Positions 1,750 to 40,786 are shown, counted from the stretch's first letter. The stretch is 64,000 nt of DNA from an uncultured virus (IMG/VR IMGVR_UViG_3300035180_001708) (IMGVR_UViG_3300035180_001708); one strand, 5' to 3'. Translations and numbers: made by a program. Notes: generated by a model from the sequence alone, not told the origin.

Positions 1750-4700
1750 TTACGGACCAAAACCATAGCGATCGAAGCCAGGTTTCAGTGGAGCCAGAAT
1801 TTCTTCGGGAGTAAAGCCTTTGTCGAAAAACCCAAGTCGTTCAGCTTCGGCTAGGTACGAGTTGTACAATTCGCGGGGCAACCCGTCAGCCAACAGCGCA
1901 TCCATTGTCTTGCGAATGTTGTTAGACTCACGAGCACGAGCATAGACCCGGAACATGGCGTTGATGCCCTCGGGCAACTCGTTGATGTTCTGGAAGATAG
2001 CGTCGTGAATAGTCGACGTACCCATGTTGAGTTTTCGACCCTCGAGGTGGTAGCCACGAACCAGGGACGCGTCAAGAGCATGGTTGCCGTTAACGCCGAA
2101 GCCCAGTCGAACATCACCGATTTCGGCCTTGCCTAGTAGTTTGCCATCTTCCGCGTCCATCTGATAGATGTTACGGACGTAGCGACGAGACGCTGGGTCA
2201 TAGAACCGAATCTCTTGTTGGATCTTTGGTCGATAGTCTTGATACAGCTTCTTGCCGTCAAAGGTAACCCACGGAATACGAACTTTCTTGGTTGTACGAG
2301 CAAAGTCTGCCCCCACACGCTTCCAGAAGTCGATGTAGGTTTGAGTCACCGGAGCACGCTCGGCTAGTTTTTCAGACATCAGCTTAGCAATTTCACGGAA
2401 GTGATCGGGACCTAGAGCTACGTTGCGATTGTTCGAGTACTTACGAACTAAGTCAGCCACTGCGGGGTGAATTTCTTCAGCCTCGGCGAGAATAGCTGAC
2501 GCCTGAGCAGCGTCTCCTGTGTTGATGATCTCGAGCAACTCTTTCTTTATAGCTAAGAGGTCTACCTTAGTTTCGAGAGCGCCAAGAGCCTCGGCTTCCT
2601 TTGCTTTCTTGTCAATTTCCTTCGTGATAGCCAGAAATTCAGCCCGAGTGGTAACAAGAATGTCTTTTTTACGCAACACCTTTGCTAGCTCTAGAGCCAC
2701 ACGAGCAGTTTGCCCTGTTTGTCCAGCACCATAGAAGGCAATCATGACCTGGTACTTAGACGCCTTTGACAGGTCTTCCCAGGTCAACTTCAATCCTAGA
2801 TCGTCCATTAGTTGCTGGAAGCGGGGGTCAGCAACCACGTCTTGAGCAACGAGGTCATAGATCCGCATCTTACGCGTTGTTGGCAACACATTGCTCGTCA
2901 ACGCTGCCAGTCGGTTTCCCGTTGACAACGAGATGACCTGCAACCCGCTAGCACTAGCGTCAGCTTCACCCATCAACTTAGTCTTGTAGCCCGCTAGGCT
3001 GACTGCATCGAACCGACCACCTGTAGCCTGGTGGATACGATAGTACTCGAGACTAAATCTAGCAATCTTGGCAACCTCTTCCCCGTCGATGGATTGGATA
3101 AAGGGGTCGTCAAGGAACTCACGCAGTCGACGATCTCGTTGAGTAGTCTCGGAGATCAACCGACCAACACGAAGAATTGCCTCCTCGTTGTCTCGGAAAA
3201 TCTGCAACCGCCCAGCGTCAGTCAAGGCCTCTGTGGCAGGCCCGATTACAGCAGCGAGCTGAATACGAATCTGATGCAGCCCCTCGGGTGTCATGGCTGT
3301 AGCTTCGGCTGAGTTCAGGAAAGGGCGAACAACCTCTCCGCCAGTAGGAGTGAGGTAGCCATTGTAGTATACACGACCCCGTCCATCAATCCTAGCCATT
3401 GCACGGAAACGACGACCTGTGGCGCGATAGTAGCGAAGGGCTTCCATGAGTCCATAACCTTGGTCACCACGTCTAATAATCTCCTCTCTAAAGGTGTTCA
3501 GCTCGTCGTAGTGAGCGGCTGCACCGCGATTGTCTTTGAAGCGGACAAGATCGTCCATGAAACTTGTAAACTCAGGGTCTACTTCATATTCCAGTGACAT
3601 GGTATGGTTTAACATGTCCGAGAAGTCACCGTCAATTTGCTTTGCATCAAAGTTAGCCTGAGCTGACCGGGTAATTAGGCTGATGCCTGAGTCTTTCCCC
3701 CGTGAGTTAACATAGGTCTTTCGACCAGGAACAACAACGTAGCGGTTCTCTGGGCGGTCGATGCCGAAGCGATTAGCTAGCTCTAGACGACGATTGTTTG
3801 ACTGCAGTCGTAGCATGTCTGGGTCAAGAACTTGAACTTCACGAGAAACAGTGTCTTTCCAGGCTCCTGACGCTCGGTTAGTTTCAAGGTCGATGACAGC
3901 TCGTCGAGTTACCCCTCGGCTGTTGATACGGATCAACCCCTGGGATCGCATGTACTCAAGGATCTTAGACCCTTCTTCATGATAGTCTTGCAGGCTATGT
4001 CCTAGGTAAGGAACAATGTCACCCCAGGAATCAGCAACTTCACGACCGAGACTAATTGCCAGCGAGTCGTAGTCAGTGGTTCGGCCCTCTGCAACAATGC
4101 GGAACATACGAGCGAGGTTAGACACAGACCGACCCTCTAGATCACGAAGGTTAGTCTTCAAGAAGTCACGCCACAAGTGGAAACGAAGAAACTCCAGGTC
4201 GATGATCGATTGATACTTTTCCTTGATTGTGCGAGTAGCAAAGTCCATGAACCCTTCTTCGTACACAGCTCTAAGGTCCTTGTACCAACCTGGTGTAAAG
4301 AAGCCCTTGATCTCATCGAGTATAATCTTCTTGATTGCAGGAGGCGTCTTGCCATAACGAGTATAGAATTCGAGGGGGTTGTTACGATAGAACACAGACC
4401 GAATAGTACGCTTGAAGAAAGAGTCCTTGACTCGGTCAACAATAGACTTAGGTTTATCAGGCTGGTCAAAAAAGTACGCCTTCCAGGGCGATCGGCCTGT
4501 GTAGTACATGCGACGAGCAAGAGCAGTACCCTGGTCAGCTGTCCAGTCCTGAGCATACAACTCATAAGACCGACGGTTAGCGAGCAAGTCTTCGATCGAG
4601 ATAGTCTCACCACCAATTTGTACACTAGGTTGTGATGGATCACCACGGAACCCAAGGAACAGGCTGTCACGAGCCCGAGACCGGCGGTCCAACAGTCGAG

Positions 4701-6264
4701 AAACGTTGACCACAGAGTAGTTAGTCTCTGCTCGGAAGGTAGCCTGGAAGTCCTCCCAGGGAACAGGAGTCTTCTGGTAGCGTTCAAACACCACACGAAG
4801 AGTTTCTGTGACAACAGACTGTTGATTGACTGACACACGATCGGTCAGCGACTCAACAAAGTTCTCAATGAAGGCTTTTTGTCGACGATCAAGCAGCTTA
4901 GACTGCTGCATGTAGTCGAGTCGTTCACGATACAGAGTAAAGTCAGGGTTGTAGTAGTACGAAGAGCGAACTTCTCCCGTGAAGGGATCGAAGGTAGAGT
5001 TACGAGGGTCAAACTCATTAGTTGACGCAAAGCGAACTCCCCGTTTACCCGCAAGAGACGTACCCCGGTAGTCCACAAGAGACAGGGGTTGTCCTGCATT
5101 GGTAGTATCTGTGATAATCATCTTTGTCAGCTCGTCTGCTGCACGGGTTGACCGTACTAGCTGAAACGGGCGAGACACAGACACTAGACCGTCAAGAGTA
5201 GGAGCGACTGTAGCTGTACCCTCTAGCCCGAAGAACGTAGCAAGGTTGTCCTTGACACGCAACACAGACAGGCTAATCGGATTGCCACGAGCTGTGAAGA
5301 AGTCAGACATTGACAAGGTACCACGCTCAAACAGTCCTACTCGTTCCTCTGTTCCTAGGTGAGACAGCTTAGTAGACATGGACTGACGACGAAGCCAGTC
5401 AGTAAAGGACTCCTTGGCAGGGGCGAGACCGTTCAGTCGGGTCTCGTCAACAGCCTCAAGAGCAGTATGGTTCAACCAGGGAGACTGTACCGAGCGCAAC
5501 ACAGACTTAGCCTTGACAGTCAACACTAGGGTAGAGCGACAGTTCCAGTGCAGAGGGGGTACTACCTTGAGGTTGTCAGGAGTCTGAACCAACCCGTCTG
5601 TAGTTGCACAAATAGAGCTAGTGCGAGAGTCAAGGATAGCGGTGAAGACAAGCCCAGCAATCAGGTCACTGTTAGCCTGAGCTACACGACGCTTTATGAG
5701 TGACTCTGCCTGAGTAAAGTTAGTGACCACCAAGGTCTTGGCCTGAGCCTCGGTCAACCGACTAGTACGGATAATGTCGTCGATCAACTCACGTTCGGTG
5801 GTGCCTGCCACAATGCCACGCCGTACTCTGGCGTTGATACGAGTCAGCTCGTCCGACCCTGCACGGTTAAGGTTCTCGAACAAAGTACCGTGCTCAGTGG
5901 ACGTGTTAGACAACCGAAGAGGGGTTCGGGTAATGTCACGAGCTAACTCACCACGATTAACCGACTGGACCTTGAAGAAGTCACGAACAGAGCGAGACAG
6001 ACTGTTAACTTGAAAGTCAAGTTCAGCCCCCACAAAGTCGTCAATTGCTGACCGACCAATGCCATAAAGCTGTTGTACGTGGCGAGTAACTTCACGCTCT
6101 AGGTCGAGAGACAGCGAAGGGGGTTTAGTACGAAACAGTCGAGACAAGAAGCCACGGTGGGCTGCAGCTTCTCGTTCGATCAAAAGTTTTGCTGCGTCTT
6201 GGTAGCGTCTCGTCAGGATAAGATGTTCAACTTGTCGGTCAAACAAGTCCTGGTTAATAGACAT
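1750..6264 (-). CDS. MuF (SPP1 gp7-like) minor head protein domain fused to T7-family single-subunit RNA polymerase
   Basis: N-term FTAILDSRTSSICATTDG...PPLHWNCRSTL (MuF signature). C-term IDGRGRVY, EADASASGLQ (motif A), KYQVMIAFYG (motif B), NGNHALDAS, TIHDAI (motif C). Confidence 0.9.
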   Translation of the reverse strand: MSINQDLFDRQVEHLILTRRYQDAAKLLIEREAAAHRGFLSRLFRTKPPSLSLDLEREVTRHVQQLYGIGRSAIDDFVGAELDFQVNSLSRSVRDFFKVQSVNRGELARDITRTPLRLSNTSTEHGTLFENLNRAGSDELTRINARVRRGIVAGTTERELIDDIIRTSRLTEAQAKTLVVTNFTQAESLIKRRVAQANSDLIAGLVFTAILDSRTSSICATTDGLVQTPDNLKVVPPLHWNCRSTLVLTVKAKSVLRSVQSPWLNHTALEAVDETRLNGLAPAKESFTDWLRRQSMSTKLSHLGTEERVGLFERGTLSMSDFFTARGNPISLSVLRVKDNLATFFGLEGTATVAPTLDGLVSVSRPFQLVRSTRAADELTKMIITDTTNAGQPLSLVDYRGTSLAGKRGVRFASTNEFDPRNSTFDPFTGEVRSSYYYNPDFTLYRERLDYMQQSKLLDRRQKAFIENFVESLTDRVSVNQQSVVTETLRVVFERYQKTPVPWEDFQATFRAETNYSVVNVSRLLDRRSRARDSLFLGFRGDPSQPSVQIGGETISIEDLLANRRSYELYAQDWTADQGTALARRMYYTGRSPWKAYFFDQPDKPKSIVDRVKDSFFKRTIRSVFYRNNPLEFYTRYGKTPPAIKKIILDEIKGFFTPGWYKDLRAVYEEGFMDFATRTIKEKYQSIIDLEFLRFHLWRDFLKTNLRDLEGRSVSNLARMFRIVAEGRTTDYDSLAISLGREVADSWGDIVPYLGHSLQDYHEEGSKILEYMRSQGLIRINSRGVTRRAVIDLETNRASGAWKDTVSREVQVLDPDMLRLQSNNRRLELANRFGIDRPENRYVVVPGRKTYVNSRGKDSGISLITRSAQANFDAKQIDGDFSDMLNHTMSLEYEVDPEFTSFMDDLVRFKDNRGAAAHYDELNTFREEIIRRGDQGYGLMEALRYYRATGRRFRAMARIDGRGRVYYNGYLTPTGGEVVRPFLNSAEATAMTPEGLHQIRIQLAAVIGPATEALTDAGRLQIFRDNEEAILRVGRLISETTQRDRRLREFLDDPFIQSIDGEEVAKIARFSLEYYRIHQATGGRFDAVSLAGYKTKLMGEADASASGLQVISLSTGNRLAALTSNVLPTTRKMRIYDLVAQDVVADPRFQQLMDDLGLKLTWEDLSKASKYQVMIAFYGAGQTGQTARVALELAKVLRKKDILVTTRAEFLAITKEIDKKAKEAEALGALETKVDLLAIKKELLEIINTGDAAQASAILAEAEEIHPAVADLVRKYSNNRNVALGPDHFREIAKLMSEKLAERAPVTQTYIDFWKRVGADFARTTKKVRIPWVTFDGKKLYQDYRPKIQQEIRFYDPASRRYVRNIYQMDAEDGKLLGKAEIGDVRLGFGVNGNHALDASLVRGYHLEGRKLNMGTSTIHDAIFQNINELPEGINAMFRVYARARESNNIRKTMDALLADGLPRELYNSYLAEAERLGFFDKGFTPEEILAPLKPGFDRYGFGP
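2542..2560 (-). promoter_or_regulatory. Class B phage promoter-like motif inside the MuF-RNAP gene
   Basis: Minus strand CCTCTTAGCTATAAAGAAA; first 18 nt identical to the copies at 10363-10380 and 37849-37866; points toward tail genes. Confidence 0.65.
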
Positions 6265-7564: not shown

Positions 7565-7768
7565 TTATACTCCTTGCCCAACGTCCGGGTAACAGGTAGC
7601 GGTTGCCACCGGAATGTTAGCCGCCTTAGCGGACTCTAGTTGCGTTGAGAGCAGCAGTTGACAGTCAGTTAGAGACAGCAGCTCGGGGTTAATTGATACA
7701 TTACAAGTAGTTGCCGAGTCACCTGTGCACCACAGAAAAACAGCTAAAAACAGAGGGGTCATGGTCAT
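7565..7768 (-). CDS. Small Cys-containing secreted/membrane protein
   Basis: Hydrophobic N-terminus, four Cys; start overlaps portal stop. Confidence 0.5.
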   Translation of the reverse strand: MTMTPLFLAVFLWCTGDSATTCNVSINPELLSLTDCQLLLSTQLESAKAANIPVATATCYPDVGQGV

Positions 7769-9333
7769 TGATTCTCCTGAATTGACACTCTTTCGTTGGC
7801 AGGAAGCAGGGCGTCTTGTTGAATTTCGGCCACCCCGTCATCATCGGAGTAGTCGGAAGGTATGATATCGTGTTGCTTAGCAATTGCGAGCCACACAGAC
7901 CGGGGAATCAATCTGTTCTGATACCATTCTGTAGCAAGTCTCGCCCACTCAGCACCAAGAGGCGCAGGGTTAAAGTCACTCGACAACTTGAAGTCAAGAT
8001 CTGTCATGTCCAGCTCAGTACCATACTTCCAACGAAGCATAGTCTCAATGACGTACTTCATTGTCGTCGAGACCTTCATGTTGATCACAGCCAACTGAGA
8101 CGTCACACTCGAGTTACGAATCTCGAGAGCAATACCCGAGTCAGCTCCAGACCCGTGACCAGACTCAGGAGACAACAACCGTAGCCCCATGCGCATCATG
8201 TCCGCCACAGCTGATTCAATGGATCGCTCCATGTCAGACAGCGCTGCCGTGGGAGTGGCAACACTATCGATCTTGTCTTCACGATTCAGCTTGATCCAGG
8301 TACCCAGCCCAGCGGACACAATACCCTGAAAGTCCTCGTTCGACATGTCCGAGAACACCACAGGAGTAAACGTTGACGCCCCGTACATCAGATGGTTACG
8401 ACGAGACAACTTGTTGTACAACGCCACTTCCCGGTCGATGACAGGAGTCAAGAAAGGAATCTCGAGAGACACTTCCCCGGACAGCGGGTAAATAGGCAAG
8501 TAGTTGACCAACTGACCCCCCATCACGGGTTGCGACTGAGACACCAGCTGCCAGGCATCGGAGCCAGACACTGACCCTGGAATCTGCAGTGTTCCCGATT
8601 GAACGTCAGCAACAGTGGTTCCCACACGATGATAGGTATCAACAGTGTAGTTACCAGACTCGTCGAGGTAATGGTCAGCAGCAACAACCTTCAACACAGG
8701 GTGGAACACCGACACAGCCGGGTCATAGTCCTTGACCAGGTAGCGAAACACAACACGAGACAACCGGACCTTGGACGTGACCGGGTCACGAGTGGTCTGC
8801 CAGTTAATCACGTCCTCGGCTCGCCACAACACAGGGTACGGGAACAGTTGATCACGGTCCTGGGACGACAGTCCAACATAGTCCTCGACCACAGGAAAGT
8901 CAATTGACACCCAGCCTCGGGATGTCACCAACTCTTCCCAGATCGCTGCGTCCAGAAACGCAAACAACGACCGACCGTCCTCGGTGAACCGATTACGCAG
9001 CCAGTCCTCGGCGTCTGCTGGGACTGACGCGGGTAACTCTAGCTGAGGTTTCTTCCTCAACAGCCCTCCAGCAAGGATCTTGGCATACTGAGACACTAGC
9101 CCCGGCAGCTCGGCCTCGGAAACATACCAACGGTAGTGTTCGGGAGACATTCGAGGGCTGAACGGGACAAGCAAGTTTGTATAGTTGACTGTATCTAGGA
9201 TCTCATCATGGGCCTTGGCGTACAGCTCGCCATTGACGACTGCACGAGAACGACGCCACAGGGACTCCATGGACTCGTACTCGTAGCAGGGCGTCCCCAC
9301 GGTCACCCGACCGGTTGGAAAAACTAGGCTCAC
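7765..9333 (-). CDS. Portal protein (DUF4055-like)
   Basis: 522 aa; GGLLRKKPQLELP...EDGRSL...RGWVSIDFP...YPVLWRAEDVINW, typical of DUF4055 portals; upstream of MuF gene. Confidence 0.8.
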   Translation of the reverse strand: MSLVFPTGRVTVGTPCYEYESMESLWRRSRAVVNGELYAKAHDEILDTVNYTNLLVPFSPRMSPEHYRWYVSEAELPGLVSQYAKILAGGLLRKKPQLELPASVPADAEDWLRNRFTEDGRSLFAFLDAAIWEELVTSRGWVSIDFPVVEDYVGLSSQDRDQLFPYPVLWRAEDVINWQTTRDPVTSKVRLSRVVFRYLVKDYDPAVSVFHPVLKVVAADHYLDESGNYTVDTYHRVGTTVADVQSGTLQIPGSVSGSDAWQLVSQSQPVMGGQLVNYLPIYPLSGEVSLEIPFLTPVIDREVALYNKLSRRNHLMYGASTFTPVVFSDMSNEDFQGIVSAGLGTWIKLNREDKIDSVATPTAALSDMERSIESAVADMMRMGLRLLSPESGHGSGADSGIALEIRNSSVTSQLAVINMKVSTTMKYVIETMLRWKYGTELDMTDLDFKLSSDFNPAPLGAEWARLATEWYQNRLIPRSVWLAIAKQHDIIPSDYSDDDGVAEIQQDALLPANERVSIQENQ

Positions 9334-9632
9334 AGCGAGTCATCCGACCAGACTACAGCGGCTGACCCAGTCAACGTTCGTGCAAACACTCGCTTGCCAA
9401 CCACAGCAGGGTTAAGGTCAGTCAACAGTCGACCGTGCAGTGGAGGGTCAGTCGGGCGAAACACATGACCAAGGTCAGAAGCCGCGGGAGGGGTTGCAGT
9501 CGTAGTGACAACAAGAATAACTCCGGCTTGATTACCGGACAGCCAGGTCATGGACGCCTTGGTGCAGTCAGCGTTAGTCAACTCGGTCCAGGTCGAACTG
9601 GACAATTGGTGTACATAGGTGTTACGTGCCAT
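9330..9632 (-). CDS. Hypothetical protein (late operon)
   Basis: Overlap-coupled with phoH and portal. Confidence 0.6.
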   Translation of the reverse strand: MARNTYVHQLSSSTWTELTNADCTKASMTWLSGNQAGVILVVTTTATPPAASDLGHVFRPTDPPLHGRLLTDLNPAVVGKRVFARTLTGSAAVVWSDDSL

Positions 9633-10296
9633 GGGATGCTCCTTCGTGTAGCATGAAGGTTCGGACCAGAGTTGCTACTAGGTCGGAACGAACGATATCG
9701 TCAACAGTGAATTTAATAATAGGAATTTCAGTCTCGAGTCCGTAGTGGTGGACCAGCCCCTCAAACTCGGACAGTCCCGAGTCACGAATGTCACGTTGCA
9801 TGGGGTCACCCATCAACACCATCCTTGACCCTTCACCGATGCGGGTGGTCACAGCCTTGACTTCCTCGTAGTCTAGATTCTGGGCTTCATCAACAAGAAC
9901 AACAGAGTCCTCGAACGAGGTACCGCGAATAGTCTCGAGAGGGACATAGACAATAGACCCTGAGTGGACCTTTGAATCGTAGTTGGTTGCTCCTAGACGA
10001 GACCGAGCTACTCCAATCATGGGGGCCAACCAGGGTTCTAGTTTCTCAGTTACAGTTCCGGGAAAGAAGCCTAGGGATCGACCAGTAGGAGCATTGGTTC
10101 GAGTAAAAACAAGTTGTCGAGCTTGACCTGACAACAAGAGATTAACAGCAGCGTTAACAGCACACCATGTCTTACCAACACCCGCAGGGCCAATGGCGAT
10201 TGTCAGCTGAGAACGAGTAATTGCTCTCAACAAACGATCTTGATTGACAGTCTTGGGTTGAATATGAGACGGGGTGTTATCACGATTATTTCTCAT
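9622..10296 (-). CDS. phoH: PhoH-family ATPase
   Basis: GPAGVGKT, LGFFPG, RGTSF, VDEAQN, TRIGEGS, GDPMQRD, DIVRS motifs. Confidence 0.95.
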   Translation of the reverse strand: MRNNRDNTPSHIQPKTVNQDRLLRAITRSQLTIAIGPAGVGKTWCAVNAAVNLLLSGQARQLVFTRTNAPTGRSLGFFPGTVTEKLEPWLAPMIGVARSRLGATNYDSKVHSGSIVYVPLETIRGTSFEDSVVLVDEAQNLDYEEVKAVTTRIGEGSRMVLMGDPMQRDIRDSGLSEFEGLVHHYGLETEIPIIKFTVDDIVRSDLVATLVRTFMLHEGASHGT

Positions 10297-10359
10297 TTAT
10301 CCTCTTAATTTTTATTGATGAGAAGAAACTACAAAACATAATGTTAACATATGTTATCA

Positions 10360-10380
10360 TTCTTCTTTATAGCTAAGAGG
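10360..10380 (-). promoter_or_regulatory. Class B phage promoter-like motif upstream of phoH-portal-MuF/RNAP operon
   Basis: CCTCTTAGCTATAAAGAAGAA on minus strand, 21/21 identical to 37846-37866. Confidence 0.75.
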
Positions 10381-10420
10381 ACTAGGGGTATTATCCAACG
10401 GGGGCAGGGGGGCGGCCCTC

Positions 10421-10439
10421 CCTCTTTAACGCTAAGAGG
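10421..10439 (-). promoter_or_regulatory. Variant class B motif (CCTCTTAGCGTTAAAGAGG)
   Basis: Close variant of the repeated motif about 60 nt upstream of the perfect copy; ends are self-complementary (CCTCTT/AAGAGG). Confidence 0.5.
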
Positions 10440-10443
10440 TGAG

Positions 10444-10481
10444 AACTGAGGGTTTTTATGTATCTATAATGAGAGAATCGA
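10444..10481 (+). promoter_or_regulatory. Class A early promoter-like motif AACTGAG-N9-GTATCTATAA
   Basis: AACTGAG ggtttttat GTATCTATAATGAGAGAATCGA; 24-nt core shared exactly with 13229-13252; at start of the rightward early region. Confidence 0.7.
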
Positions 10482-10510
10482 CTCTCTAGTATAAACTTCA
10501 AGAGGTGACC

Positions 10511-13006: not shown

Positions 13007-13220
13007 CGCCGAAAACTACTATGTTGTGATTGACGTTCACATCATGGTCGACAAAGACTCGGAGCTCCAGACTTTTTCAGGGGTGCTGGACTCTGGTTTT
13101 CAGTCGGAAGACCTTTGCAAAGCTGCCACGCAGCTGGCAATGGATAAGTTGCTTCGAGACCAGGCAAAGTTGTTTGGTCTTTGGTACGAGTACCGTTGTA
13201 TTCCTGGTATAAAAAACTGA
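12960..13220 (+). CDS. Small secreted two-Cys protein
   Basis: Signal peptide (ASA-E); FQSEDLC...YRCIP. Confidence 0.6.
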   Translation: MLKGLILSTMLAGSASAENYYVVIDVHIMVDKDSELQTFSGVLDSGFQSEDLCKAATQLAMDKLLRDQAKLFGLWYEYRCIPGIKN

Positions 13221-13252
13221 GGAAAACAATGTATCTATAATGAGAGAATCGA
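13215..13252 (+). promoter_or_regulatory. Class A early promoter-like motif
   Basis: AACTGAG gaaaacaat GTATCTATAATGAGAGAATCGA. Confidence 0.7.
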
Positions 13253-13291
13253 ATCTCAACCCCGGCTTTATAGCCCCAACAGGAGGTCATC

Positions 13292-26439: not shown

Positions 26440-26448
26440 GAGAAGTAC

Positions 26449-28969: not shown

Positions 28970-28971
28970 AA

Positions 28972-29781: not shown

Positions 29782-29795
29782 ATTGGGGTAAACAA

Positions 29796-29996: not shown

Positions 29997-30027
29997 GCCT
30001 TAGCGGCCCTAACGCAGAGAGGTTCCA

Positions 30028-30672
30028 ATGCTATCGATAGATAGACAAAAGTTATCTAAGATCCAGAAAGTGTTGTCAGCAGTTGAAACTATACCGCAAG
30101 GGGGTAACCTGGACGGTATGTGTTCAATCTCTGCAATACACTTTGGATTGGAAGGAGTTGTTGACCAGGAGAGAACTCCGGGAATGTCTCCTGCTGTTTA
30201 CACCTGGATCCGGATGGTTCAACCCTGGATCCCGGTAGAACTGCTCAACCACCCAAGTTGGAAACAGTTGATACCTTTTGCAGCAGCGACAGGGTTGCTG
30301 CATGAAGAACGTCGACAACAAGTGGTGGACGATTGGTTGTGGTGGACCATTGTCCCTTCGTTGGACGACCAAGTTGACCCACCATCGATGCATGACTGGA
30401 GGTTGTTCGGGGTCAATAAGGAACAGATATACCTCGGTAGGCTATTGAAACGTCGGCAAACTGCCTTGCTCAGAACAGGGCTACTTGCTCTCAACAACTA
30501 CCTCAAGCGCCCCTCGGTCAGGAGTGCTTGTTTTGCTGCGTCCCTCGTGATGCAGAATCGTGACTACGACTGGTGGCTGCAATCTCGTACAACCTTGACC
30601 CTGAAAAGGTTGATACAAGTAAGCGTAACCCCTCAAGAGCTTCAACTCCTTCAACCCAGGAACAAAAAATGA
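30028..30672 (+). CDS. Hypothetical protein
   Basis: SD GAGG; stop overlaps start of NAMPT-like gene. Confidence 0.6.
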   Translation: MLSIDRQKLSKIQKVLSAVETIPQGGNLDGMCSISAIHFGLEGVVDQERTPGMSPAVYTWIRMVQPWIPVELLNHPSWKQLIPFAAATGLLHEERRQQVVDDWLWWTIVPSLDDQVDPPSMHDWRLFGVNKEQIYLGRLLKRRQTALLRTGLLALNNYLKRPSVRSACFAASLVMQNRDYDWWLQSRTTLTLKRLIQVSVTPQELQLLQPRNKK

Positions 30673-32757: not shown

Positions 32758-33255
32758 GTGTCAGCTTCAGTGCGGACCAAGGTTAGGCTTCTTTCTTGGA
32801 GCAGTGCCAACGATTGCTGTTCTACTGCTCTTTCATCTTCTCACTCGCAAAAAGGTGAAAAAGTGAAGCAATTCAAAGATCTCACCAAAAAAGAGAAAAT
32901 TGATTTGTTCAGCAGCTGGGTAGAAGACCCCCGCTGTATCCAGTACTACAGCTCCGAACATGACACCTGGACAACAATACCAAATCCGGGCTGGATGAGT
33001 ACAACCATATACAGAGCAACAATTGCCCCAGACTACATTGACTGGTCTCACGTAGCCCCCGACTTGAAGTTCATGACTAGAGAGAGTACTGGGGCCGCTT
33101 GGCTCTGGCGTAGTCGTCCACGGGTTTTTATGGATTACTATTGGGCTTTGCCACTTACAGATGGCCACGCCGCTTGTTCGGCAAACAACTTTTCAAGCTA
33201 CAAGAAAGGGGCAACTCGTTGGCAAGAATCTCTGGTTTGTCGGCCAGAAAACTGA
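32758..33255 (+). CDS. Hypothetical protein (true start probably ~32863)
   Basis: PDYIDWSHV...W...P...W...WQESLVCRP phage-type motif. Confidence 0.6.
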   Translation: MSASVRTKVRLLSWSSANDCCSTALSSSHSQKGEKVKQFKDLTKKEKIDLFSSWVEDPRCIQYYSSEHDTWTTIPNPGWMSTTIYRATIAPDYIDWSHVAPDLKFMTRESTGAAWLWRSRPRVFMDYYWALPLTDGHAACSANNFSSYKKGATRWQESLVCRPEN

Positions 33256-33275
33256 GAAAACACACGTATCTATAA
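33250..33275 (+). promoter_or_regulatory. Class A promoter-like motif, third copy
   Basis: AACTGAG aaaacacac GTATCTATAA, same 9-nt spacer. Confidence 0.65.
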
Positions 33276-33951
33276 CCCTATGGAGGGCGCATTGCGCATA
33301 CTGTCCTCAAAGACCATGGAGCTTCGCCCTGTTGATGTGGATTCTGTTGAAACCACTGAGATACTTAGTACCTATGTCCTGGGGACTGAGGAGGTTCGAA
33401 CTGCAATAGTTTCTCTTGTTGTCGTCGGAGTAGACACGATTCCGAGCAGACGAACCCGAGCCCTTGACCCTATGGCCTCGGAAAAGAGGAAGCCTTGATC
33501 ATAGCAGAGTTGATCACCAGCGCCACAAGCAAGAAACATTAGAGGTAAAAATGACACTCTGGGTTATCCATCCTGAAGGTTCCACTCCTGGGCCCAAGAC
33601 TTATGATAGCCCCTTGTGGGACGAACGGGGTCTCAGATCCCTGAGAAAGGACAACTACGAAAGCCACCACGAAGCTTGTGTGGCGGCTCAATTTATCAGC
33701 AGCGGAAACAAATTCAATTTCATTGTGAGTGAGGCTCAAAATGCAACCATCGGAAGCAGAACTCGAAGAAGTTCAAAAGGGCCTGGCGCATTGCAAGGTC
33801 TTGATTCGCCGGTCTAAGACCGCAAAACTGGCGAAGGAGCCTTTCCATCGTCAGTATCTCTACGAGGCAAACACGATTCTCAAGTCGTTGCCTCGAACCT
33901 ACGAAGTTGTCAAGCTTGACAACTTTGTGAAACAATTTCGGAACTAAGGAA

Positions 33952-33989
33952 CCGCCCCTTCGGGGGCGGGTAGCTACTTTCCTTTTTTT
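33952..33989 (+). terminator. Intrinsic terminator
   Basis: CCGCCCC-TTCG-GGGGCGG followed by T-rich tract. Confidence 0.7.
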
Positions 33990-34006: not shown

Positions 34007-34755
34007 ATGATTCTTGCTCCATACAAAATGCCTAGCTGGGAGCCACACACAACAATTAACCCAGAGGAGGCAGGCAAGCCTCACCCAAAGGTTTTGCCTT
34101 ATTTTGACCGAGATGGTAGGTTGGTTTACCGAGTTTCGACCAACGATTTGCCATTCAAAAGCAGCCCAGTGCGGTATGCAGACTGGGTGGAAGGAGATGG
34201 ACCAGGACCTAACAAATGGTTTTCCTGGAGAGCTCTGATCATGGACAAAAAACCAGAGTTGAGGCAAGCTGGTAGCCTCTTCGGAGATGACATACCAGCT
34301 GCTGTGCAAGAAGTATTCACTGCTCGCTTCCAATTGAGGCATTTATCGCAGTTGAATCTGACTTGGTCTACAGAGCTATTGGTTCAGGCTGAAACTCTGT
34401 GGCGAGAGAAATCAAATCAGAGAGCAGGAGTGAATCATCCATGAAATTGTACTTGACAGTTGGAGACAACTGGAAAGACTACTTCTCGGTTGGTCTTGAC
34501 AAGGTGGTTTGTGTTCAAACCTTGTCTGGAGGCACAGTCAAAGAGGGTACTGGTGGTCTGTTTCTCATAACAGACTACTATCTAAAAATCAGCACAATAA
34601 GAGGCAACTCCTACTTGTCTAGCTTTGACAATCCAGGAGATCGTGATGACCTCTTAGCTATGTTGGTAAAAGAGGGGCTGCCAGATTTCCCGGAGGATTT
34701 GGCAACCCCTGTCTATGGTAACTTCAAAAGAAATGGGGGCTTTGTGCAAATATAG
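34007..34755 (+). other. Two hypothetical CDSs (34007-34444, 34441-34755)
   Basis: SD sequences and ATGA coupling; second converges on terminase. Confidence 0.6.
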
Positions 34756-36085
34756 GTTTGCTGTAGTTGAGTGGCCACAGGTAATCAACAAGATACCTTA
34801 GTCCATCACTAAAGTGTTCTACACCTTGAGTCTTGTCAATGGTAGCAGTTTCAGGTCTGCTTTCCAACCACACTGTTCGTTCGATAGAGTCAATAAACCC
34901 TTTGCACCTTGGGTGGACATACATGTCGATGTCCCCTGCAGCATTCATCATCTTGCGGTTGACTGCTGCAACACTATCAACAAGAGGTGGTGCTTTATCA
35001 CGAGCAAGGACAGTAAAACCTGCTTCTCGTAGAATACTAAAGTCTGTGGCTCCAATTGCGGCTGAGGTCTTACGAGCTCGGCCAGAAGGATCTGGATAAC
35101 AAATAATTCTAGAACGAGGGTATTTACTACGAATTACATGAGCAAGCTGCTCAGTGTTTGCGGAACCCTTTGACTCGTCTAGAGTGTGAAGTTGGCCACC
35201 ACGAATAGCATGAAAGCTAGTGCAGTTCAACATGATGTTAAAGTCAATTGCAACATGCACGTCTTCCCCCTCCATAAAATCTGGAAGGTTTGAATCAACA
35301 TGAAGTTTTCGATCCCAGGTATGAAACAGAGTCAAACCGGACTCTTCAAAGGAGGCTAGATACTCACGAGCAAAACGCAAAGGATCAGCATGTTTCTTTG
35401 CTTCCTCAATTTCTTCGTAGGACAACAAAGGAGAATCTTTATAGGTGTATTTAAAAGTCTTCCAGCGTTGATCTGTGTGCTCGCGCTGTGCGAGATCATA
35501 GAAGTAGTCTTTACCTTTAGGGGTACTGGGGATCAGGGCTCTACCAGGACTAGCTGCTCCGACCAGAGCTGCTTGCTTAGGGGACCAACGGGTAACAATG
35601 CAAGGCTCAATGACTGATTCCCAGGCGTTACGAATATCAGAACCACGAACTTCCCAACTTGGCATTTCGTCAGCAACAACAAGGTATTGGCCAGACCCAC
35701 GCATACGTTCGTGAGCGTCCGAAGACCAGCAACGAACTTCAGTTCCATTCTTGAAGACAAATTTACCCAGAGCTCTTGAAGAGCTTTTGGCTCGAGACTC
35801 AAGCCCGAATTGGTAAGCAAGCATTGGCCAGTAAATGTCTGTAACCTGAGTATAGGAACCGCACAACAGCGCAATGTTCTTGTTAGGAACAGATACTGGA
35901 AGACGTTCTAGCTCTTCAACAGCGAGAGTCACAGCCGAACCAGACATAAAGGATTTACCGAGACCACGAGACCCAACCACAACAGCAAAACGCATCTTCC
36001 AGTCGGGAGAACCAACTAGCTGGGGAGTGAATAAATGGCTCACAACCTCAGACTGAGATCGATGGAGATTAATGGTTAAAGTCAT
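34724..36085 (-). CDS. terL: Terminase large subunit
   Basis: Walker A GSRGLGKS, Walker B LVVADE, STPKG, F.REYLASF, nuclease IDFN and HFSDGLRY. Confidence 0.92.
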   Translation of the reverse strand: MTLTINLHRSQSEVVSHLFTPQLVGSPDWKMRFAVVVGSRGLGKSFMSGSAVTLAVEELERLPVSVPNKNIALLCGSYTQVTDIYWPMLAYQFGLESRAKSSSRALGKFVFKNGTEVRCWSSDAHERMRGSGQYLVVADEMPSWEVRGSDIRNAWESVIEPCIVTRWSPKQAALVGAASPGRALIPSTPKGKDYFYDLAQREHTDQRWKTFKYTYKDSPLLSYEEIEEAKKHADPLRFAREYLASFEESGLTLFHTWDRKLHVDSNLPDFMEGEDVHVAIDFNIMLNCTSFHAIRGGQLHTLDESKGSANTEQLAHVIRSKYPRSRIICYPDPSGRARKTSAAIGATDFSILREAGFTVLARDKAPPLVDSVAAVNRKMMNAAGDIDMYVHPRCKGFIDSIERTVWLESRPETATIDKTQGVEHFSDGLRYLVDYLWPLNYSKPIFAQSPHFF

Positions 36086-37821: not shown

Positions 37822-37845
37822 GGAGTCTCCTCATTGGTAGGGGGT

Positions 37846-37866
37846 TTCTTCTTTATAGCTAAGAGG
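37846..37866 (-). promoter_or_regulatory. Class B phage promoter-like motif upstream of terminase island
   Basis: CCTCTTAGCTATAAAGAAGAA on minus strand, identical to 10360-10380. Confidence 0.75.
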
Positions 37867-37872
37867 TGTGAA

Positions 37873-38259: not shown

Positions 38260-38563
38260 AAAGGAAATAAAAATAGACCTGATAGCAATGCTTTTGGCCG
38301 TTGGCCTTGTGAAGCTCTTGCTATCTTCCAAAGATCGTGTGAATAAGGCTCGTAAGAGAACTCCTTAAGGATAAACGATGAAAGATAACAACAACAAAAA
38401 AGACTTGTCCTTTTCTTCATTGATTAGAGAAATTGACGCTAAATGGGGGCACACTTATGAAAAAGTTTCCGTAGAACAAGAGTTGGAAGAATTTACTTCC
38501 GTAGAGTCTGGTGTTCTTGTCATTGACCAAACAGACATAGTTTCAAGATTGAAATGGTGATTA

Positions 38564-38580
38564 CCACTTAGCTATAAAGC
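38564..38580 (+). promoter_or_regulatory. Class B motif variant upstream of stand-alone RNAP gene
   Basis: CCACTTAGCTATAAAGC, 15 of first 16 nt match consensus, 25 nt before ATG. Confidence 0.65.
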
Positions 38581-38605
38581 AGACCAGAAAATTTTAAGGA
38601 GACTA

Positions 38606-40786
38606 ATGTCAGATAACTCTATTTTAACAAAACTCGTCGTTGACTTCGACGATAGAAAATCAATTTTAAGAGCTGACCGAAATCAATACACCCACTTCTT
38701 GAAGGAAGAAGATGGAAGAAAAATAATCCTGTACTCCTTCGCCCATGTAATCAAGGGAGTTGAACGCAAGGCAACTCTTGTAGATTTGTCAGTCACTCTA
38801 GGTCGTAGAGTAAGACAAAAACTAAGGTTGAAGAGAAATTCTGTAGCCGCTTGCCAAGTTGGATGGTTTATTCTTGTCTCTTTCTTTGAGGTAGGTCTAC
38901 TCCACTACACACTGGAAAAAGCAGATAAGAAAGGTCGCAAGTCTAAATACCTGGCCTATATAATCACCGTCAAGGATCGAAAAAGTTTGTTTGATCTTTG
39001 GGATGAGTTGAACAAGGAAGAGCAGATTGACTTGTTTCCAACAGGCCAACCTCCTGGCGACTGGACTTCACCAACACACGACCTTGGGTATGTCATTATC
39101 AAGAAATCTAGCCCCGAGATTACCTCAAAGCTAGTACCAGAAACAGCACCACTAATCTATGAGATGTTGAATAAACTAGGGCGTCAGCCTTGGATCATCA
39201 ACACTCCCATGTTGGAGGTGCTAGAATATTTTATGGATCAGCCAGCGGAAGGAAACCCTCTAAAACATAAGACTGAACGTGATCCTGAACGTCGAGCTAG
39301 TTTGACTATTGAAATTGAAGCCATTGTGAGGTTGGCACGTCGAAATTCAGAAAGGCTGTTTTACCACCTTTACAATCTAGATTTTCGAGGGAGAATCTAC
39401 CCAAATTCTGCATATTTGCACGAGCAATCGTCTGACAATGCAAAGAGTCTGTTGCTGTTTGCCAAGGGGGTTCCCCTGGGAGAAACAGGGTTGTACTGGT
39501 TGTTGCTCCATGGTGCGAACACCTGGGGTAATGACAAGGTCTCTCTTGATGACCGAGTCGAGTTTTGTCTAACAAACTATGACACTTTTGTGGAGTATGC
39601 ACGAAATCCCTATGAAGTCAGAGGTTGGATGGAGGCTGATAAGCCTTTTAGCTTTCTAGCTTTTTGTCATGAGTTAATGTATTTGCAAGATTGGGTGTCA
39701 GCTGGAAACCTCCAGAATGAGTTTGTTTCTAACCTAGTGTTGTATCTCGATGGTAGCTGTAATGGCACACAGCATCTCGTAGCAATGTCTAAAGATGAAG
39801 AGCTCGCACCTTACGTAAACCTGGTCCCTGAAGAGGTGCCAGGAGACTTGTACAGTTATGTTGCGGACAAAGTCTGGGCTAGGCTCGACCGTCTTGCAGC
39901 TGCTGTACCCCCTGAGATTGCTTGTCAGCTAGACGATGTTTTGAATCGTCTTGAGACACTGCAAGAAGCCTATGACACAGCTCCTGCAGGATCTGAACGC
40001 AAGGCGATTGCCTACACTGAGGTCCAAACTTGGCGTAATAACAATCGTAAGCTGCGTGAGATGCTCTACCCGATCTATTGGGCGCGCATCACAGATCGGA
40101 AGCTACGGCGTAAGTTAGTTAAGCGGGGAGTAATGACTTCCAGCTATGGTGCGGTTCCTTTCGGAATGGGACAACAAGTGTGGGATGACACCCGAGGGCT
40201 CAGCCCTTATCTTGCTAGTCAAGAAAAGTTGTGGTCATCGATGCTTGGATTGGAATTGTATCAGACTTGCCGCGAAGACCTTGTTGGTCCAGGTAAGTTA
40301 CTGGCTCTTTTTGAGTCTATCGCCGATGCTTACAATGAGAAGCATGAATACATGGCTTGGTTTAGCCCTGTAACAGGGTTTCCGGTAGTTCAGCACTATC
40401 GCCAACCTTTGTCAACCCGAACTTGGCTGTCTTATGGAGAAAATCGCTTTCATGTTGTTGTTGAAAATTGGGAGGAAGCTACTCTTGACAAGGACTCACA
40501 ACGTCTTGGTGCGTCTCCAAACATTGTGCACAGTCTTGATGCTACCCACATGACCATGGTTATTTGTGCTGCGTACTTTGATGTGGCAGCAATACACGAC
40601 TCTTGGGGCTGTGTGGCTGGAAACATGGAGAAACTTTTTGTCTTGATCCGAGAAAAATTTGTAGAGTTGTATGAGAAAGACCCTTTGAAGCAGATTCTGT
40701 CGCAGCTAGATGCTGAGACAATGATGCCAAAAAGAGGTAGCCTACAGTTGGAAGGAGTGCTTGAGAGTGACTACTGCTTCTGCTGA
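38606..40786 (+). CDS. T7/T3-family single-subunit DNA-directed RNA polymerase
   Basis: LDFRGRIY, LDGSCNGTQH, RKLVKRGVMTSSYG, PNIVHSLDA, IHDSW. Confidence 0.95.
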   Translation: MSDNSILTKLVVDFDDRKSILRADRNQYTHFLKEEDGRKIILYSFAHVIKGVERKATLVDLSVTLGRRVRQKLRLKRNSVAACQVGWFILVSFFEVGLLHYTLEKADKKGRKSKYLAYIITVKDRKSLFDLWDELNKEEQIDLFPTGQPPGDWTSPTHDLGYVIIKKSSPEITSKLVPETAPLIYEMLNKLGRQPWIINTPMLEVLEYFMDQPAEGNPLKHKTERDPERRASLTIEIEAIVRLARRNSERLFYHLYNLDFRGRIYPNSAYLHEQSSDNAKSLLLFAKGVPLGETGLYWLLLHGANTWGNDKVSLDDRVEFCLTNYDTFVEYARNPYEVRGWMEADKPFSFLAFCHELMYLQDWVSAGNLQNEFVSNLVLYLDGSCNGTQHLVAMSKDEELAPYVNLVPEEVPGDLYSYVADKVWARLDRLAAAVPPEIACQLDDVLNRLETLQEAYDTAPAGSERKAIAYTEVQTWRNNNRKLREMLYPIYWARITDRKLRRKLVKRGVMTSSYGAVPFGMGQQVWDDTRGLSPYLASQEKLWSSMLGLELYQTCREDLVGPGKLLALFESIADAYNEKHEYMAWFSPVTGFPVVQHYRQPLSTRTWLSYGENRFHVVVENWEEATLDKDSQRLGASPNIVHSLDATHMTMVICAAYFDVAAIHDSWGCVAGNMEKLFVLIREKFVELYEKDPLKQILSQLDAETMMPKRGSLQLEGVLESDYCFC

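What the first reader, a model, noticed from the sequence alone, without database searches (positions are those of the whole stretch)
1750..40786. Two divergent single-subunit RNAPs plus two promoter classes suggest a self-contained transcription cascade
Seen: a second, stand-alone 726-aa T7-family RNAP at 38606-40786, and two different repeated motifs. Class A precedes rightward early genes; class B precedes late and middle operons; both contain CTATAA. Inference: the injected MuF-RNAP reads class A, and the newly made RNAP reads class B, including the operon encoding MuF-RNAP, closing the loop. The assignment could be reversed or involve host RNAP. If correct, it offers two orthogonal RNAP/promoter pairs.
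Basis: inference. Interest (0 to 1): 0.88.

Follow-up and report, generated by a model that had tools for sequence, protein, structure and literature searches.

The report
Two-polymerase relay with two promoter classes
This phage encodes one RNA polymerase fused to a head protein, probably carried in the particle, and a second free one, each apparently matched to its own promoter type, so it may run its gene programme with little help from the host enzyme.

Summary
The window is a phage distantly related (40-45% aa) to the Naomviridae roseophages DSS3_VP1/PM1. It encodes a 1504-aa MuF head protein fused to a divergent single-subunit RNAP with all catalytic motifs intact (1750-6264, -), and a 726-aa T7-like RNAP (38606-40786, +).

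There are two real motif classes:
- **Class A** (AAAAASTGAGRAAA-N6-GYATCTATAAT) has 3 copies, all on +.
- **Class B** (CACCTCTTAGCTATAAAG) has 6 strong copies, all co-oriented with the next gene.

- Class A is nearly invariant in at least 135 viral contig stretches. In 43 of 43 loci holding both, it lies upstream of and co-oriented with the free RNAP gene. It lacks a -35 box. One variant co-occurs with changes in the MuF-RNAP specificity-loop region.
- Class B is T7-like in size, differs between clades, and tracks the free RNAP's specificity loop.

Nothing is shown biochemically. In this phage, class A does not directly precede the RNAP gene; class B does.

My literature searches found no paper describing this design. 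This scan had already noted the same design on other DNA. I rate it a new variant of the virion-RNAP/second-RNAP relay known from N4 and P23-45.

The parts
1750..6264 (-). MuF(SPP1 gp7-like)-RNAP fusion gene, 1504 aa. MuF domain about 74-342; RNAP body about 710-1504.
   Evidence: Pfam and PHROGs. In 20 family members the T/DxxGR motif (D960..G963 R964), motif A D1102, motif B K1170..Y1178 G1179 and motif C H1420 D1421 are invariant. The family profile hits T7 RNAP in the PDB at 2.7e-8. Only two Cys, both in the MuF domain.
38606..40786 (+). Stand-alone T7-like single-subunit RNAP, 726 aa.
   Evidence: Pfam RNA_pol 4.9e-76. T7 RNAP 6.2e-60, with motifs A, B and C and the specificity-loop region aligned. 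70% identical in G002/G003 and 44.5% in DSS3_VP1.
13210..13243 (+). Class A promoter candidate, canonical copy (TAAAAAACTGAGGAAAACAATGTATCTATAATGAG), followed by a hairpin at 13241-13258.
   Evidence: PWM 49.9 of 57.5 bits; exact pattern match; downstream fold z = -2.79.
10439..10472 (+). Class A copy with a degenerate upstream half. It lies back to back with class B at 10416-10443 and heads the rightward block that starts at ATG 10511.
   Evidence: hairpin GAGAG..CTCTC at 10471-10486.
33245..33278 (+). Class A copy with TATAAC instead of TATAAT, near the end of the rightward block.
10357..10384 (-). Class B promoter candidate upstream of the operon PhoH (9622-10296), portal (7765-9333), a 429-aa ORF and MuF-RNAP.
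   Evidence: PWM 34.8 bits; exact match of the 15-mer; sequence context.
10416..10443 (-). Class B variant (CACCTCTTAGCGTTAAAGAGGG), in tandem with the copy above.
   Evidence: PWM 31.4 bits. The same CGYTAAAG variant occurs in G002.
37843..37870 (-). Class B upstream of the leftward packaging operon (37821 down to terminase 34724-36085).
   Evidence: PWM 39.3 bits. An orthologous site occurs in G002 at 44288 and in G003 at 32089.
38560..38587 (+). Class B (one mismatch, CCACTTAG), 27 nt upstream of the free RNAP's start codon.
   Evidence: B-like motifs sit at the same place in relatives L011, L024, L025 and L012.
42354..42381 (+). Weaker class B heading the replication and nucleotide-metabolism block (42387 to about 62310).
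   Evidence: PWM 18.6 bits.
2537..2564 (-). Class B copy inside the MuF-RNAP ORF, co-oriented with it. Possible internal promoter for the downstream structural genes.
   Evidence: Exact 15-mer match; PWM 29.4 bits.
62318..62348 (+). Terminator-like hairpin (13 pairs followed by a T run) that closes the rightward block.
33952..33969 (.). GC-rich 7-bp hairpin between the convergent early block and the packaging operon. The scan tool does not call it a canonical terminator.
   Evidence: Fold z = -2.9 on + and -4.0 on -; not listed.

Best explanation
The window is part of a Naomviridae-like long-tailed phage genome of at least 92 kb that runs a relay of two single-subunit RNAPs.

**Step 1 (inferred).** The 1504-aa MuF-RNAP is built into the head through its MuF/gp7 module next to the portal and leaves the capsid with the DNA.

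**Step 2 (inferred from comparison).** This enzyme recognises the bipartite class A promoter, which is conserved across the whole family: an A tract plus STGAG about 25 nt upstream, and GYATCTATAAT at the start site. It transcribes the early block. Here that block runs from 10.5 to 33.9 kb and holds small ORFs and NAD-salvage genes. Many of these messages begin with a short hairpin.

**Step 3.** In relatives this early unit includes the free RNAP gene. In this phage and its close kin an opposite-strand packaging operon lies in between. The free RNAP gene must therefore be reached by read-through or by weak use of the class B copy in front of it.

**Step 4 (inferred from comparison).** The free 726-aa T7-like RNAP reads the roughly 20-nt class B promoters (CACCTCTTAGCTATAAA|G). 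These stand in front of its own gene (positive feedback), the replication block, the packaging operon and the operon PhoH-portal-MuF-RNAP, which reloads new particles with MuF-RNAP.

**Shown:** both genes, intact catalytic motifs, both motif classes, and their positions and conservation. **Not shown:** packaging, any transcription start, and which enzyme reads which motif.
For: **Two real, distant RNAPs.**
- Searches identify both.
- A profile-profile alignment covers 609 columns at 19% identity, E = 4e-4.
- Catalytic residues of MuF-RNAP are invariant in 20 of 20 family members.

**The fusion is a stable family.**
- 181 proteins at E <= 0.001. The 120 listed are almost all 1400-1600 aa and carry PF04233.
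- 118 representatives at E <= 0.001 in the exhaustive search, with the RNAP part at about 620-720 to the C-terminus in the full-length hits.

**Signature of an exported protein.**
- 20 of 20 MuF-RNAPs have exactly two Cys, both in the MuF domain.
- 9 of 9 free RNAPs have 5-10 Cys.

**Class A conservation and position.**
- At least 135 viral contig stretches match the pattern.
- 93 distinct sites share the consensus aAAAAAGTGAGaAAAa..GcATCTATAATGA.
- It is present in DSS3_VP1, G002, G003, G006, G007, G009 and G010, with 0 matches to the reversed control pattern.
- In 43 of 43 loci (40 contigs) that hold class A and a free-RNAP hit, every class A copy lies 0.8-9.6 kb upstream of that gene on the same strand.

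**Class A does not look like a host promoter.**
- The sigma-70 scan does not call any of the window's class A sites.
- There is no excess of sigma-70-like sites: 14 against 12.7 expected.

**The free RNAP's specificity loop does not track class A.**
- The loop takes 26 different forms among loci that share class A.
- Loop identity is 0.45 against 0.58 for the protein as a whole.
- In MuF-RNAP the matching region is as conserved as the rest: 0.56 against 0.55.

**Covariation with MuF-RNAP.**
- The one clear class A variant (GTGGGG..CCCTCTATAAT) co-occurs in 3 contigs (L116, L131, G007) with changes at near-invariant MuF-RNAP loop residues (YRP to YRV/T; LLGK to L[AML]S[PQE]).
- The free RNAP loops of two of those contigs differ strongly from each other.

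**Class B behaves like a T7-type promoter of the free RNAP.**
- 6 of 6 strong sites in the window are co-oriented with the next gene, 14-69 nt before its start.
- It is identical in G002 and G003, whose loop keeps the same key residues.
- It differs in each other loop group:
  - DSS3_VP1: ATAGGKNRCGTTAAAGAGGGG, about 17 sites, all on +.
  - G006: AAATACTGCCGCCTAATGA, 4 sites.
  - Three further groups.

**Control.** Pelagibacter phage Kolga has a free RNAP (29% identity) and a MuF protein without RNAP. It has no class A beyond chance: 6 against 5.92 expected.
Against: - No transcription start, RNA or protein data exist. No RNA run could be listed, and the Naomviridae papers I searched do not mention RNAPs.
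- In this window no class A site lies before the RNAP block (PWM scan). Class B sits 27 nt before the RNAP gene. A GC hairpin and a 3.9-kb opposite-strand operon separate the last class A copy from it.
- Class A carries a perfect sigma-70 -10 hexamer (TATAAT) in 2 of the 3 copies here and in the family consensus.
- The loop-conservation contrast is modest (0.45/0.58 against 0.56/0.55). It rests on related sequences, and the class A covariation is probably a single evolutionary event.
- Only two of the three class A copies here keep the full consensus downstream half, and only one scores high.
- EBPR siphovirus 1 has a split MuF-RNAP (31% identity). It shows no canonical class A in the 50 of 54.5 kb examined: 1 match against 0.65 expected.
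- In G002 and G003 one class B copy points antisense inside the class A-driven block.
- Packaging of MuF-RNAP is inferred from the MuF family only.
Confidence: 0.6

Rival explanations
1. Host RNAP holoenzyme reads class A, as in T7 where host RNAP makes the early messages including the phage RNAP. The free RNAP reads class B. The RNAP domain on MuF does something else, for example pulling DNA in, priming, or transcribing only a few sites.
For: Class A ends in a perfect TATAAT and has an A-rich upstream part that could act like an UP element. Its near-invariance across many phages would fit a universal host signal. No class A lies before the RNAP block here.
Against: There is no -35 hexamer and no TGn extension, and the sigma-70 scan does not call the sites. 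Conserved positions (STGAG, GYATC) go beyond what sigma-70 needs. The GTGGGG/CCCTC variant travels with changes in the MuF-RNAP loop. Kolga, which lacks the fusion, lacks class A.
Confidence: 0.2
2. The assignment is reversed: MuF-RNAP reads class B and the free RNAP reads class A.
For: In this window class B, not class A, directly precedes the free RNAP gene, as expected if the injected enzyme had to switch it on.
Against: Class A lies upstream of the free RNAP gene in 43 of 43 related loci. Class B stands before late structural operons and changes with the free RNAP's specificity loop. The free RNAP's loop is highly variable among phages that share one class A.
Confidence: 0.07
3. One enzyme, the free RNAP, reads both classes as strong and weak or early and late variants (like T7 class II and III). 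The MuF-fused domain is a structural relic.
For: Both classes share the core CTATAA(A/T)G in this phage.
Against: All catalytic motifs of the fused RNAP are invariant in 20 of 20 members at 39-71% identity. In DSS3_VP1 the two cores differ: CGTTAAAG against TCTATAATG. Class A must fire before the free RNAP exists.
Confidence: 0.05
4. Class A is not a promoter but another conserved signal, for example a regulatory RNA start, a processing site or a replication or packaging site.
For: There are only 1-5 copies per genome, and a conserved hairpin follows it.
Against: It always sits in intergenic gaps, co-oriented with and shortly before gene starts. It has the same core as class B.
Confidence: 0.05

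Closest known systems
Coliphage N4 / Schitoviridae polymerase relay (vRNAP gp50, then RNAPII gp15/16, then host RNAP)
   Same: An injected single-subunit-type RNAP for early genes is followed by a second T7-like RNAP (N4 review PMC4496689, abstract as listed; Iyer 2017 PMC5512222, passages). The Cys-poor signature of the injected enzyme was an earlier scan note, re-tested here.
   Different: The enzyme here is 1504 aa and anchored by an N-terminal MuF domain, not a ~3500-aa protein with a zincin peptidase region. The family profile finds T7 RNAP but no N4 vRNAP chain at E <= 0.01. The second RNAP is one chain. Late operons carry the phage promoter (class B) rather than host promoters. Promoters are linear and bipartite, with the hairpin after the TATAAT rather than before the start.
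Thermus phage P23-45: tape-measure-fused virion RNAP plus non-virion RNAP (Chaban et al. 2024, PMC10770324; abstract read)
   Same: A virion structural protein is fused to an RNAP that transcribes the first genes, including the gene of a second, free RNAP. Two distinct DNA motifs serve the two enzymes (a section heading seen in the outline).
   Different: Those are two-barrel (cellular-type) RNAPs fused to the tape measure. Here both are single-subunit T7-type enzymes and the carrier is the MuF head protein.
T7/T3/SP6-type RNAP-promoter pairs (Autographiviridae)
   Same: The free RNAP aligns with T7 RNAP over residues 389-883, including motifs A, B and C and the specificity loop. Class B is about 20 nt, ends in TAWAAG, and co-varies with the loop.
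   Different: The N-terminal domain is shorter (726 against 883 aa). The phage is long-tailed. Early genes appear not to depend on host promoters. TSS positions are not mapped.
MuF polymorphic toxins / polyvalent proteins (MuF domain fused to deliverable effector domains)
   Same: An N-terminal MuF module carries a C-terminal enzymatic cargo, presumed to be delivered with the DNA (Iyer 2017, passages; PMC12226406, abstract start).
   Different: The cargo is an RNAP. [quoted passage not shown]
Naomviridae (DSS3_VP1, DSS3_PM1; Rihtman et al. 2021, PMC8323127)
   Same: Nearest isolates. 18 DSS3_VP1 ORFs have hits in the window, among them MuF-RNAP, the free RNAP, portal, terminase, PhoH, DNA polymerase and RNR. 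Class A is present in both isolates.
   Different: Identity is only 27-61% aa. Gene strands are rearranged. No homologue of the DSS3_VP1 dCTP deaminase or nucleotide kinase was found in the window, so dU-DNA cannot be inferred. The paper's text contains no mention of RNA polymerase, MuF or head morphogenesis.

Membership tests
Single-subunit (T7-type) RNAP, Pfam PF00940: free RNAP 38606-40786 | Sequence match above the curated cut-off, with motifs T/DxxGR, A (D), B (R..K..Y G) and C (H D) | tested here: met
   256.8 bits against a cut-off of 22. DFRGR, YLDGSCNG, KRGVMTSSYG and IHDSWG align to T7.
Single-subunit (T7-type) RNAP: C-terminal part of 1750-6264 | Sequence match above the cut-off and catalytic motifs conserved | tested here: met
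   26.4 bits against a cut-off of 22. Profile against PDB hits T7 RNAP at 2.7e-8, collinear over three blocks. D960/G963/R964, D1102, K1170/Y1178/G1179 and H1420/D1421 are invariant in 20 of 20.
Single-subunit RNAP fold of the fused domain | Predicted or solved right-hand polymerase fold | not testable with these tools
   Structure prediction did not accept jobs.
MuF / SPP1 gp7 head protein family (PF04233) | MuF domain present; gene sits in the head module next to the portal | tested here: met
   40.4 bits against a cut-off of 29.6; PHROG 241 head morphogenesis 7.5e-47. The portal (7765-9333) is two genes upstream in the same operon.
MuF / SPP1 gp7 head protein family | Protein present in virions and ejected | not testable with these tools
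N4-like virion RNAP (gp50 family) | Giant (~3500 aa) protein with a zincin peptidase region; sequence nearest to N4 mini-vRNAP | tested here: not met
   The protein is 1504 aa with no peptidase family in Pfam. The PDB profile search returns T7 and mitochondrial RNAPs only at E <= 0.01.
N4-like virion RNAP | Promoter is a DNA hairpin upstream of the start (recalled from the N4 literature, not from a call) | tested here: inconclusive
   The inverted repeat lies after TATAAT. In 49 of 80 unique sites the hairpin starts at the first base after TATAA. The TSS is unknown.
T7-type promoter (class B) | Roughly 20-nt asymmetric motif, co-oriented with and close to gene starts, co-varying with the RNAP specificity loop | tested here: met
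   6 of 6 window sites are co-oriented. Five loop groups have five motif variants.
T7-type promoter (class B) | Transcription starts at the motif | not testable with these tools
   No RNA run was listed.
Sigma-70 promoter (class A) | -35 TTGACA-like hexamer 16-18 nt before a TATAAT-like hexamer | tested here: not met
   The -10 hexamer is present, but none of the three sites is called by the scan. The hexamers at the -35 position are AAACTG or GAACTG (read and 51 output).
Naomviridae | Shared core genes with DSS3_VP1/PM1 | tested here: met
   18 DSS3_VP1 ORFs hit the window. These are the best phage hits for both RNAPs.
Naomviridae | dU-DNA synthesis genes (Dcd, Dtm; PMC12697855, passages) | tested here: not met
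   No tblastn hit to DSS3_VP1 ORFs at 47637-48511, and no deaminase in Pfam among the ORFs tested. The window is only part of the genome.

The most novel reading that the evidence does not exclude
A whole, widespread family of long-tailed phages is independent of host RNAP. A MuF-anchored, injected single-subunit RNAP reads a bipartite early promoter that has stayed almost unchanged in more than a hundred phages and starts messages with a 5' hairpin. It hands over to a compact T7-like RNAP whose promoter evolves freely. That would give two small, naturally orthogonal RNAP-promoter pairs in one genome, and a new way (MuF fusion) to ship a polymerase in a capsid.
Probability: 0.45. Interest if true: 0.9.

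Novelty: new variant of a known kind. Interest (0 to 1): 0.8.

Why it matters
Virion-carried RNAPs are known from N4-like podophages, jumbo phages, crAss-like phages and P23-45. A T7-type enzyme riding on the MuF head protein of a siphophage-like family would be a further, compact solution.

- It would explain how these abundant marine and lake phages, some with dU-DNA, start infection.
- It would show that MuF can deliver a 90-kDa enzyme.
- The family offers dozens of natural free-RNAP/promoter variants plus one very conserved second pair, useful as orthogonal expression parts.
- DSS3_VP1 is in culture, so the model is directly testable.

Tried and rejected
- **Structure prediction.** Prediction of the RNAP part (alignment A2) was not accepted four times, so there was no fold comparison with T7 or N4 enzymes.
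- **Complex prediction.** Complex prediction for portal with the MuF domain was not available.
- **RNA evidence.** No RNA holder was listed, and read laying was therefore not used.
- **Own assembly.** It is not held.
- **Sigma-70 scans.** They gave no excess: 6 against 3.5, 14 against 12.7.
- **CTATAA as a unit.** It is not enriched.
- **Wrong spacers.** Two pattern searches with a wrong spacer length found nothing and were corrected (then 84).
- **Third motif.** A motif seen next to class A in relatives (AATTNAACGGGCTTTGT) is not in the window: 5 one-mismatch matches against 3.87 expected.
- **EBPR siphovirus 1.** No canonical class A. This is inconclusive, because the record is partial and the relative distant.
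- **dU-DNA.** No Dcd or kinase homologue was found, so I dropped the idea of tying the relay to dU-DNA for this phage.
- **G002.** CheckV calls it 100% complete, but it ends inside the MuF-RNAP gene, so its RNAP domain could not be compared.
- **Literature.** Searches found no description of a MuF-RNAP fusion or of Naomviridae transcription. Supplements were not read.

Full report
**What the window is**

The 64-kb window is phage DNA.
- Genes run leftward from 10.3 kb to 1: PhoH, portal, a 429-aa ORF, MuF-RNAP and a beta-helix protein.
- They run rightward from 10.5 to 33.9 kb: many small ORFs and NAD-salvage genes.
- They run leftward from 37.8 to 34.0 kb: small ORFs and the large terminase.
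- They run rightward from 37.9 to 62.3 kb: a GGACT-like protein, the free RNAP, DNA polymerase, primase-helicase, RNR and amidoligases.

The best phage hits for both RNAPs are the roseophages DSS3_VP1 and DSS3_PM1 (Naomviridae), at 40% identity for the fusion and 44.5% for the free RNAP. 18 DSS3_VP1 ORFs have hits in the window. An identical portal protein is on record from a 92,202-bp contig, so the genome is larger than the window. The window's own assembly is not held. Fragments identical to it are in IMG/VR (L002, L003, L085).

**The two polymerases**

ORF 1750-6264(-) is 1504 aa.
- It carries Phage_Mu_F (142-246, 5.5e-10) and RNA_pol (1091-1422, 3.9e-6).
- PHROGs give head morphogenesis (7.5e-47) and RNA polymerase (2.2e-18).
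- A single-sequence search of the PDB finds nothing. A profile of 20 family members finds T7 RNAP at 2.7e-8 in three collinear blocks: the T/DxxGR motif, motif A, and the specificity loop plus motif C. No N4 vRNAP chain appears at E <= 0.01.
- D960, G963 and R964; D1102; K1170, Y1178 and G1179; and H1420 and D1421 are invariant in 20 of 20 sequences that are 39-71% identical to the window protein.

The architecture is a stable family.
- The word-indexed search finds 181 proteins at E <= 0.001. The 120 listed are nearly all 1400-1600 aa and carry PF04233.
- The exhaustive search finds 118 representatives at E <= 0.001 and 54 at <= 1e-30. In full-length hits the RNAP part always starts near residue 620-720.

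ORF 38606-40786(+) is a 726-aa T7-like RNAP (Pfam 4.9e-76; T7 RNAP 6.2e-60) with all motifs and an alignable specificity loop. The two families align over 609 columns at 19% identity, hhalign E = 4e-4. They are very distant paralogues.

Following a lead from an earlier scan note, I counted cysteines. 20 of 20 MuF-RNAPs have exactly two, both in the MuF domain. 9 of 9 free RNAPs have 5-10.

**The motifs in the window**

Class A (AACTGAG-N9-GTATCTATAA) occurs three times, all on +, against 0.00 expected. The copies lie in intergenic gaps before rightward genes.
- The copy at 13210-13243 is canonical (49.9 of 57.5 PWM bits).
- The copies at 10439-10472 and 33245-33278 are degenerate (9.5 and 16.5 bits).
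- No other site exceeds 8 bits, and no site reaches 6 bits in 10 block shuffles.

Class B has six strong sites (one search gives 8 against 1.49 expected).
- Two stand in tandem before PhoH-portal-MuF-RNAP.
- One stands before the packaging operon.
- One lies 27 nt before the free RNAP's ATG.
- One stands before the replication block.
- One lies inside the MuF-RNAP ORF.

All six point the same way as the next gene. At the two divergent regions the upstream end of class B, read on the other strand (TAAGAGGTG), doubles as the ribosome-binding site of the first rightward gene.

A weaker B-like site at 55693-55720 points antisense. Sigma-70-like sites are at chance level.

**Class B in relatives**

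The same motif is the largest repeat family in the related contigs G002 and G003, whose free RNAP is 70% identical. The reversed control pattern gives 0 matches. In G002 it precedes RNR, the gene after the RNAP, the packaging operon and a tRNA-Arg.

Other clades have other motifs at equivalent places.
- DSS3_VP1 has ATAGGKNRCGTTAAAGAGGGG at about 17 sites, all on the coding strand.
- G006 has AAATACTGCCGCCTAATGA at 4 sites.
- Three further groups have ATASCTGACSTTAAAG, TAGGTGACGTTAAAG and CCAGGGTACGCTAAAG.

These groups coincide with different sequences of the free RNAP's specificity loop. The window, G002 and G003 share both the loop's key residues and the motif. The part next to the presumed start (TWAAAG) stays the same, and the part further upstream changes, as in T7-type pairs. 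This points to the free RNAP as reader of class B. The groups are related by descent, so these are not independent trials.

**Class A in relatives**

Class A is almost unchanged in DSS3_VP1 (35812, 36259 and a partial copy at 67796), G002, G003, G006, G009 and G010. G007 carries a variant.

The 77 loci fetched hold 93 distinct sites with the consensus aAAAAAGTGAGaAAAa..GcATCTATAATGA.

In 43 of 43 loci (40 contigs) that hold class A and a free-RNAP hit, every class A copy lies 0.8-9.6 kb upstream of that gene on the same strand. This is conserved synteny rather than 43 independent events.

- The free RNAP's loop takes 26 different forms among these loci.
- Mean pairwise identity is 0.45 in the loop against 0.58 over residues 300-720 (31 unique sequences). 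In MuF-RNAP it is 0.56 in the matching region against 0.55 over 900-1504 (40 sequences). The contrast is modest.
- The one clear class A variant (GTGGGG...CCCTCTATAAT) occurs in L116, L131 and G007. Their MuF-RNAP loop differs at near-invariant positions. The free RNAP loops of L131 and G007 are unlike each other.
- Pelagibacter phage Kolga has a free RNAP and a 633-aa MuF protein without RNAP. It has no class A beyond chance.
- EBPR siphovirus 1, with a distant, split MuF-RNAP, also shows none in the 50 kb examined. That does not help the model.
- Among isolated phages only DSS3_VP1 and DSS3_PM1 match class A.

**Hairpin after class A**

I folded 80 unique 28-nt stretches that follow TATAA.
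- They fold better than shuffles: mean -3.42 against -0.94 kcal/mol.
- 54 of 80 have z < -1.
- In 49 of 80 the stem starts at the first base.
- In the window the copies at 10.47 and 13.24 kb show it, and the one at 33.27 kb does not.

This agrees with an earlier scan note. It suggests that transcripts start at or next to the T or G of TGA, but no start is mapped.

**What does not fit**

In the window, G002 and G003 the packaging operon lies on the opposite strand between the class A block and the RNAP block. In the window a GC hairpin (33952-33969), which the scan tool does not call a terminator, also lies between them. How the free RNAP is first made here is open. Candidates are read-through, weak use of the class B copy before it, or host RNAP.

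In G002 and G003 a conserved class B copy (54243+ and 40521+) sits inside the class A-driven block. It points against that block's genes and toward PhoH, 3.6-3.9 kb away.

**Comparison with what is known**

The logic matches N4 (PMC4496689 and PMC5512222) and P23-45 (PMC10770324, abstract). The carrier (MuF), the enzyme type for a long-tailed phage, and the promoters differ.
- Iyer et al. 2017 state that virion RNAP modules occur only in N4-like phages.
- The Naomviridae papers I searched contain no mention of RNA polymerase or MuF.
- Five literature searches found no description of the fusion. Supplements were not read.
- This scan had already flagged the same design and both promoter types on other DNA. 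I re-tested those claims here rather than relying on them.

**Verdict**

I give 0.6 to the full relay model and 0.2 to host RNAP reading class A; the remainder goes to the other rivals.

Noticed in passing
window 28942-32165 (also 24376-26853): NAD-salvage genes (ribose-phosphate pyrophosphokinase, NAMPT) and a 687-aa PHROG 1735 protein lie in the class A-driven block. In DSS3_VP1 the homologous cluster (67835-71862) follows the partial class A copy at 67796. Early expression would suit a counter-defence role (idea only).
   Followed up: partly
window 56690-61438 and 20957-21832: Cluster of glutamine amidotransferases, two COOH-NH2 ligases, an amidoligase and an S6-glutaminyl-transferase-like ATP-grasp protein. 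Also a nucleoside 2-deoxyribosyltransferase-like ORF (43224-43640) and a DUF3310 ORF. Possibly metabolite, peptide or DNA modification.
   Followed up: no
window 1-34000 against 34000-56000: G+C is about 0.49-0.55 in the structural and early blocks but 0.41-0.45 in the packaging, RNAP and replication blocks.
   Followed up: no
window 33904-33925: Perfect 22-bp palindrome AAGTTGTCAAGCTTGACAACTT just before the GC hairpin, at the junction of the convergent blocks. Related 12-mers recur elsewhere.
   Followed up: no
G007 (L066-L068) 39114-40406; EBPR siphovirus 1 gp48: The MuF-RNAP gene is interrupted at motif B by an insert that encodes an HNH endonuclease. In EBPR siphovirus 1 an HNH endonuclease gene likewise splits the gene.
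   Followed up: partly
G002 54243-54258(+), G003 40521-40536(+): A conserved class B copy points antisense inside the class A-driven early block, 3.6-3.9 kb upstream of PhoH. Possibly late antisense transcription across early genes.
   Followed up: partly
window 55693-55720(-): B-like site (17.6 bits) pointing antisense inside the rightward block.
   Followed up: no
window 62789-62818(-): Near-consensus sigma-70-like site (TTGACT, 18 nt, TATAAT with TG; 11 of 12) downstream of the endolysin gene.
   Followed up: no
relatives L094, L093, L111, L097, L144: A third repeated motif, AATTNAACGGGCTTTGT, sits directly upstream of class A in some of these loci. It is absent from the window.
   Followed up: partly
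L110 10001-11600: In a 60%-identical relative, a small class A-driven cassette on the opposite strand is wedged between MuF-RNAP and the scaffold and capsid genes.
   Followed up: no
G002 50705-50807(-): A class B variant stands 12 nt before a tRNA-Arg(TCT) gene. The window itself has no tRNA.
   Followed up: yes
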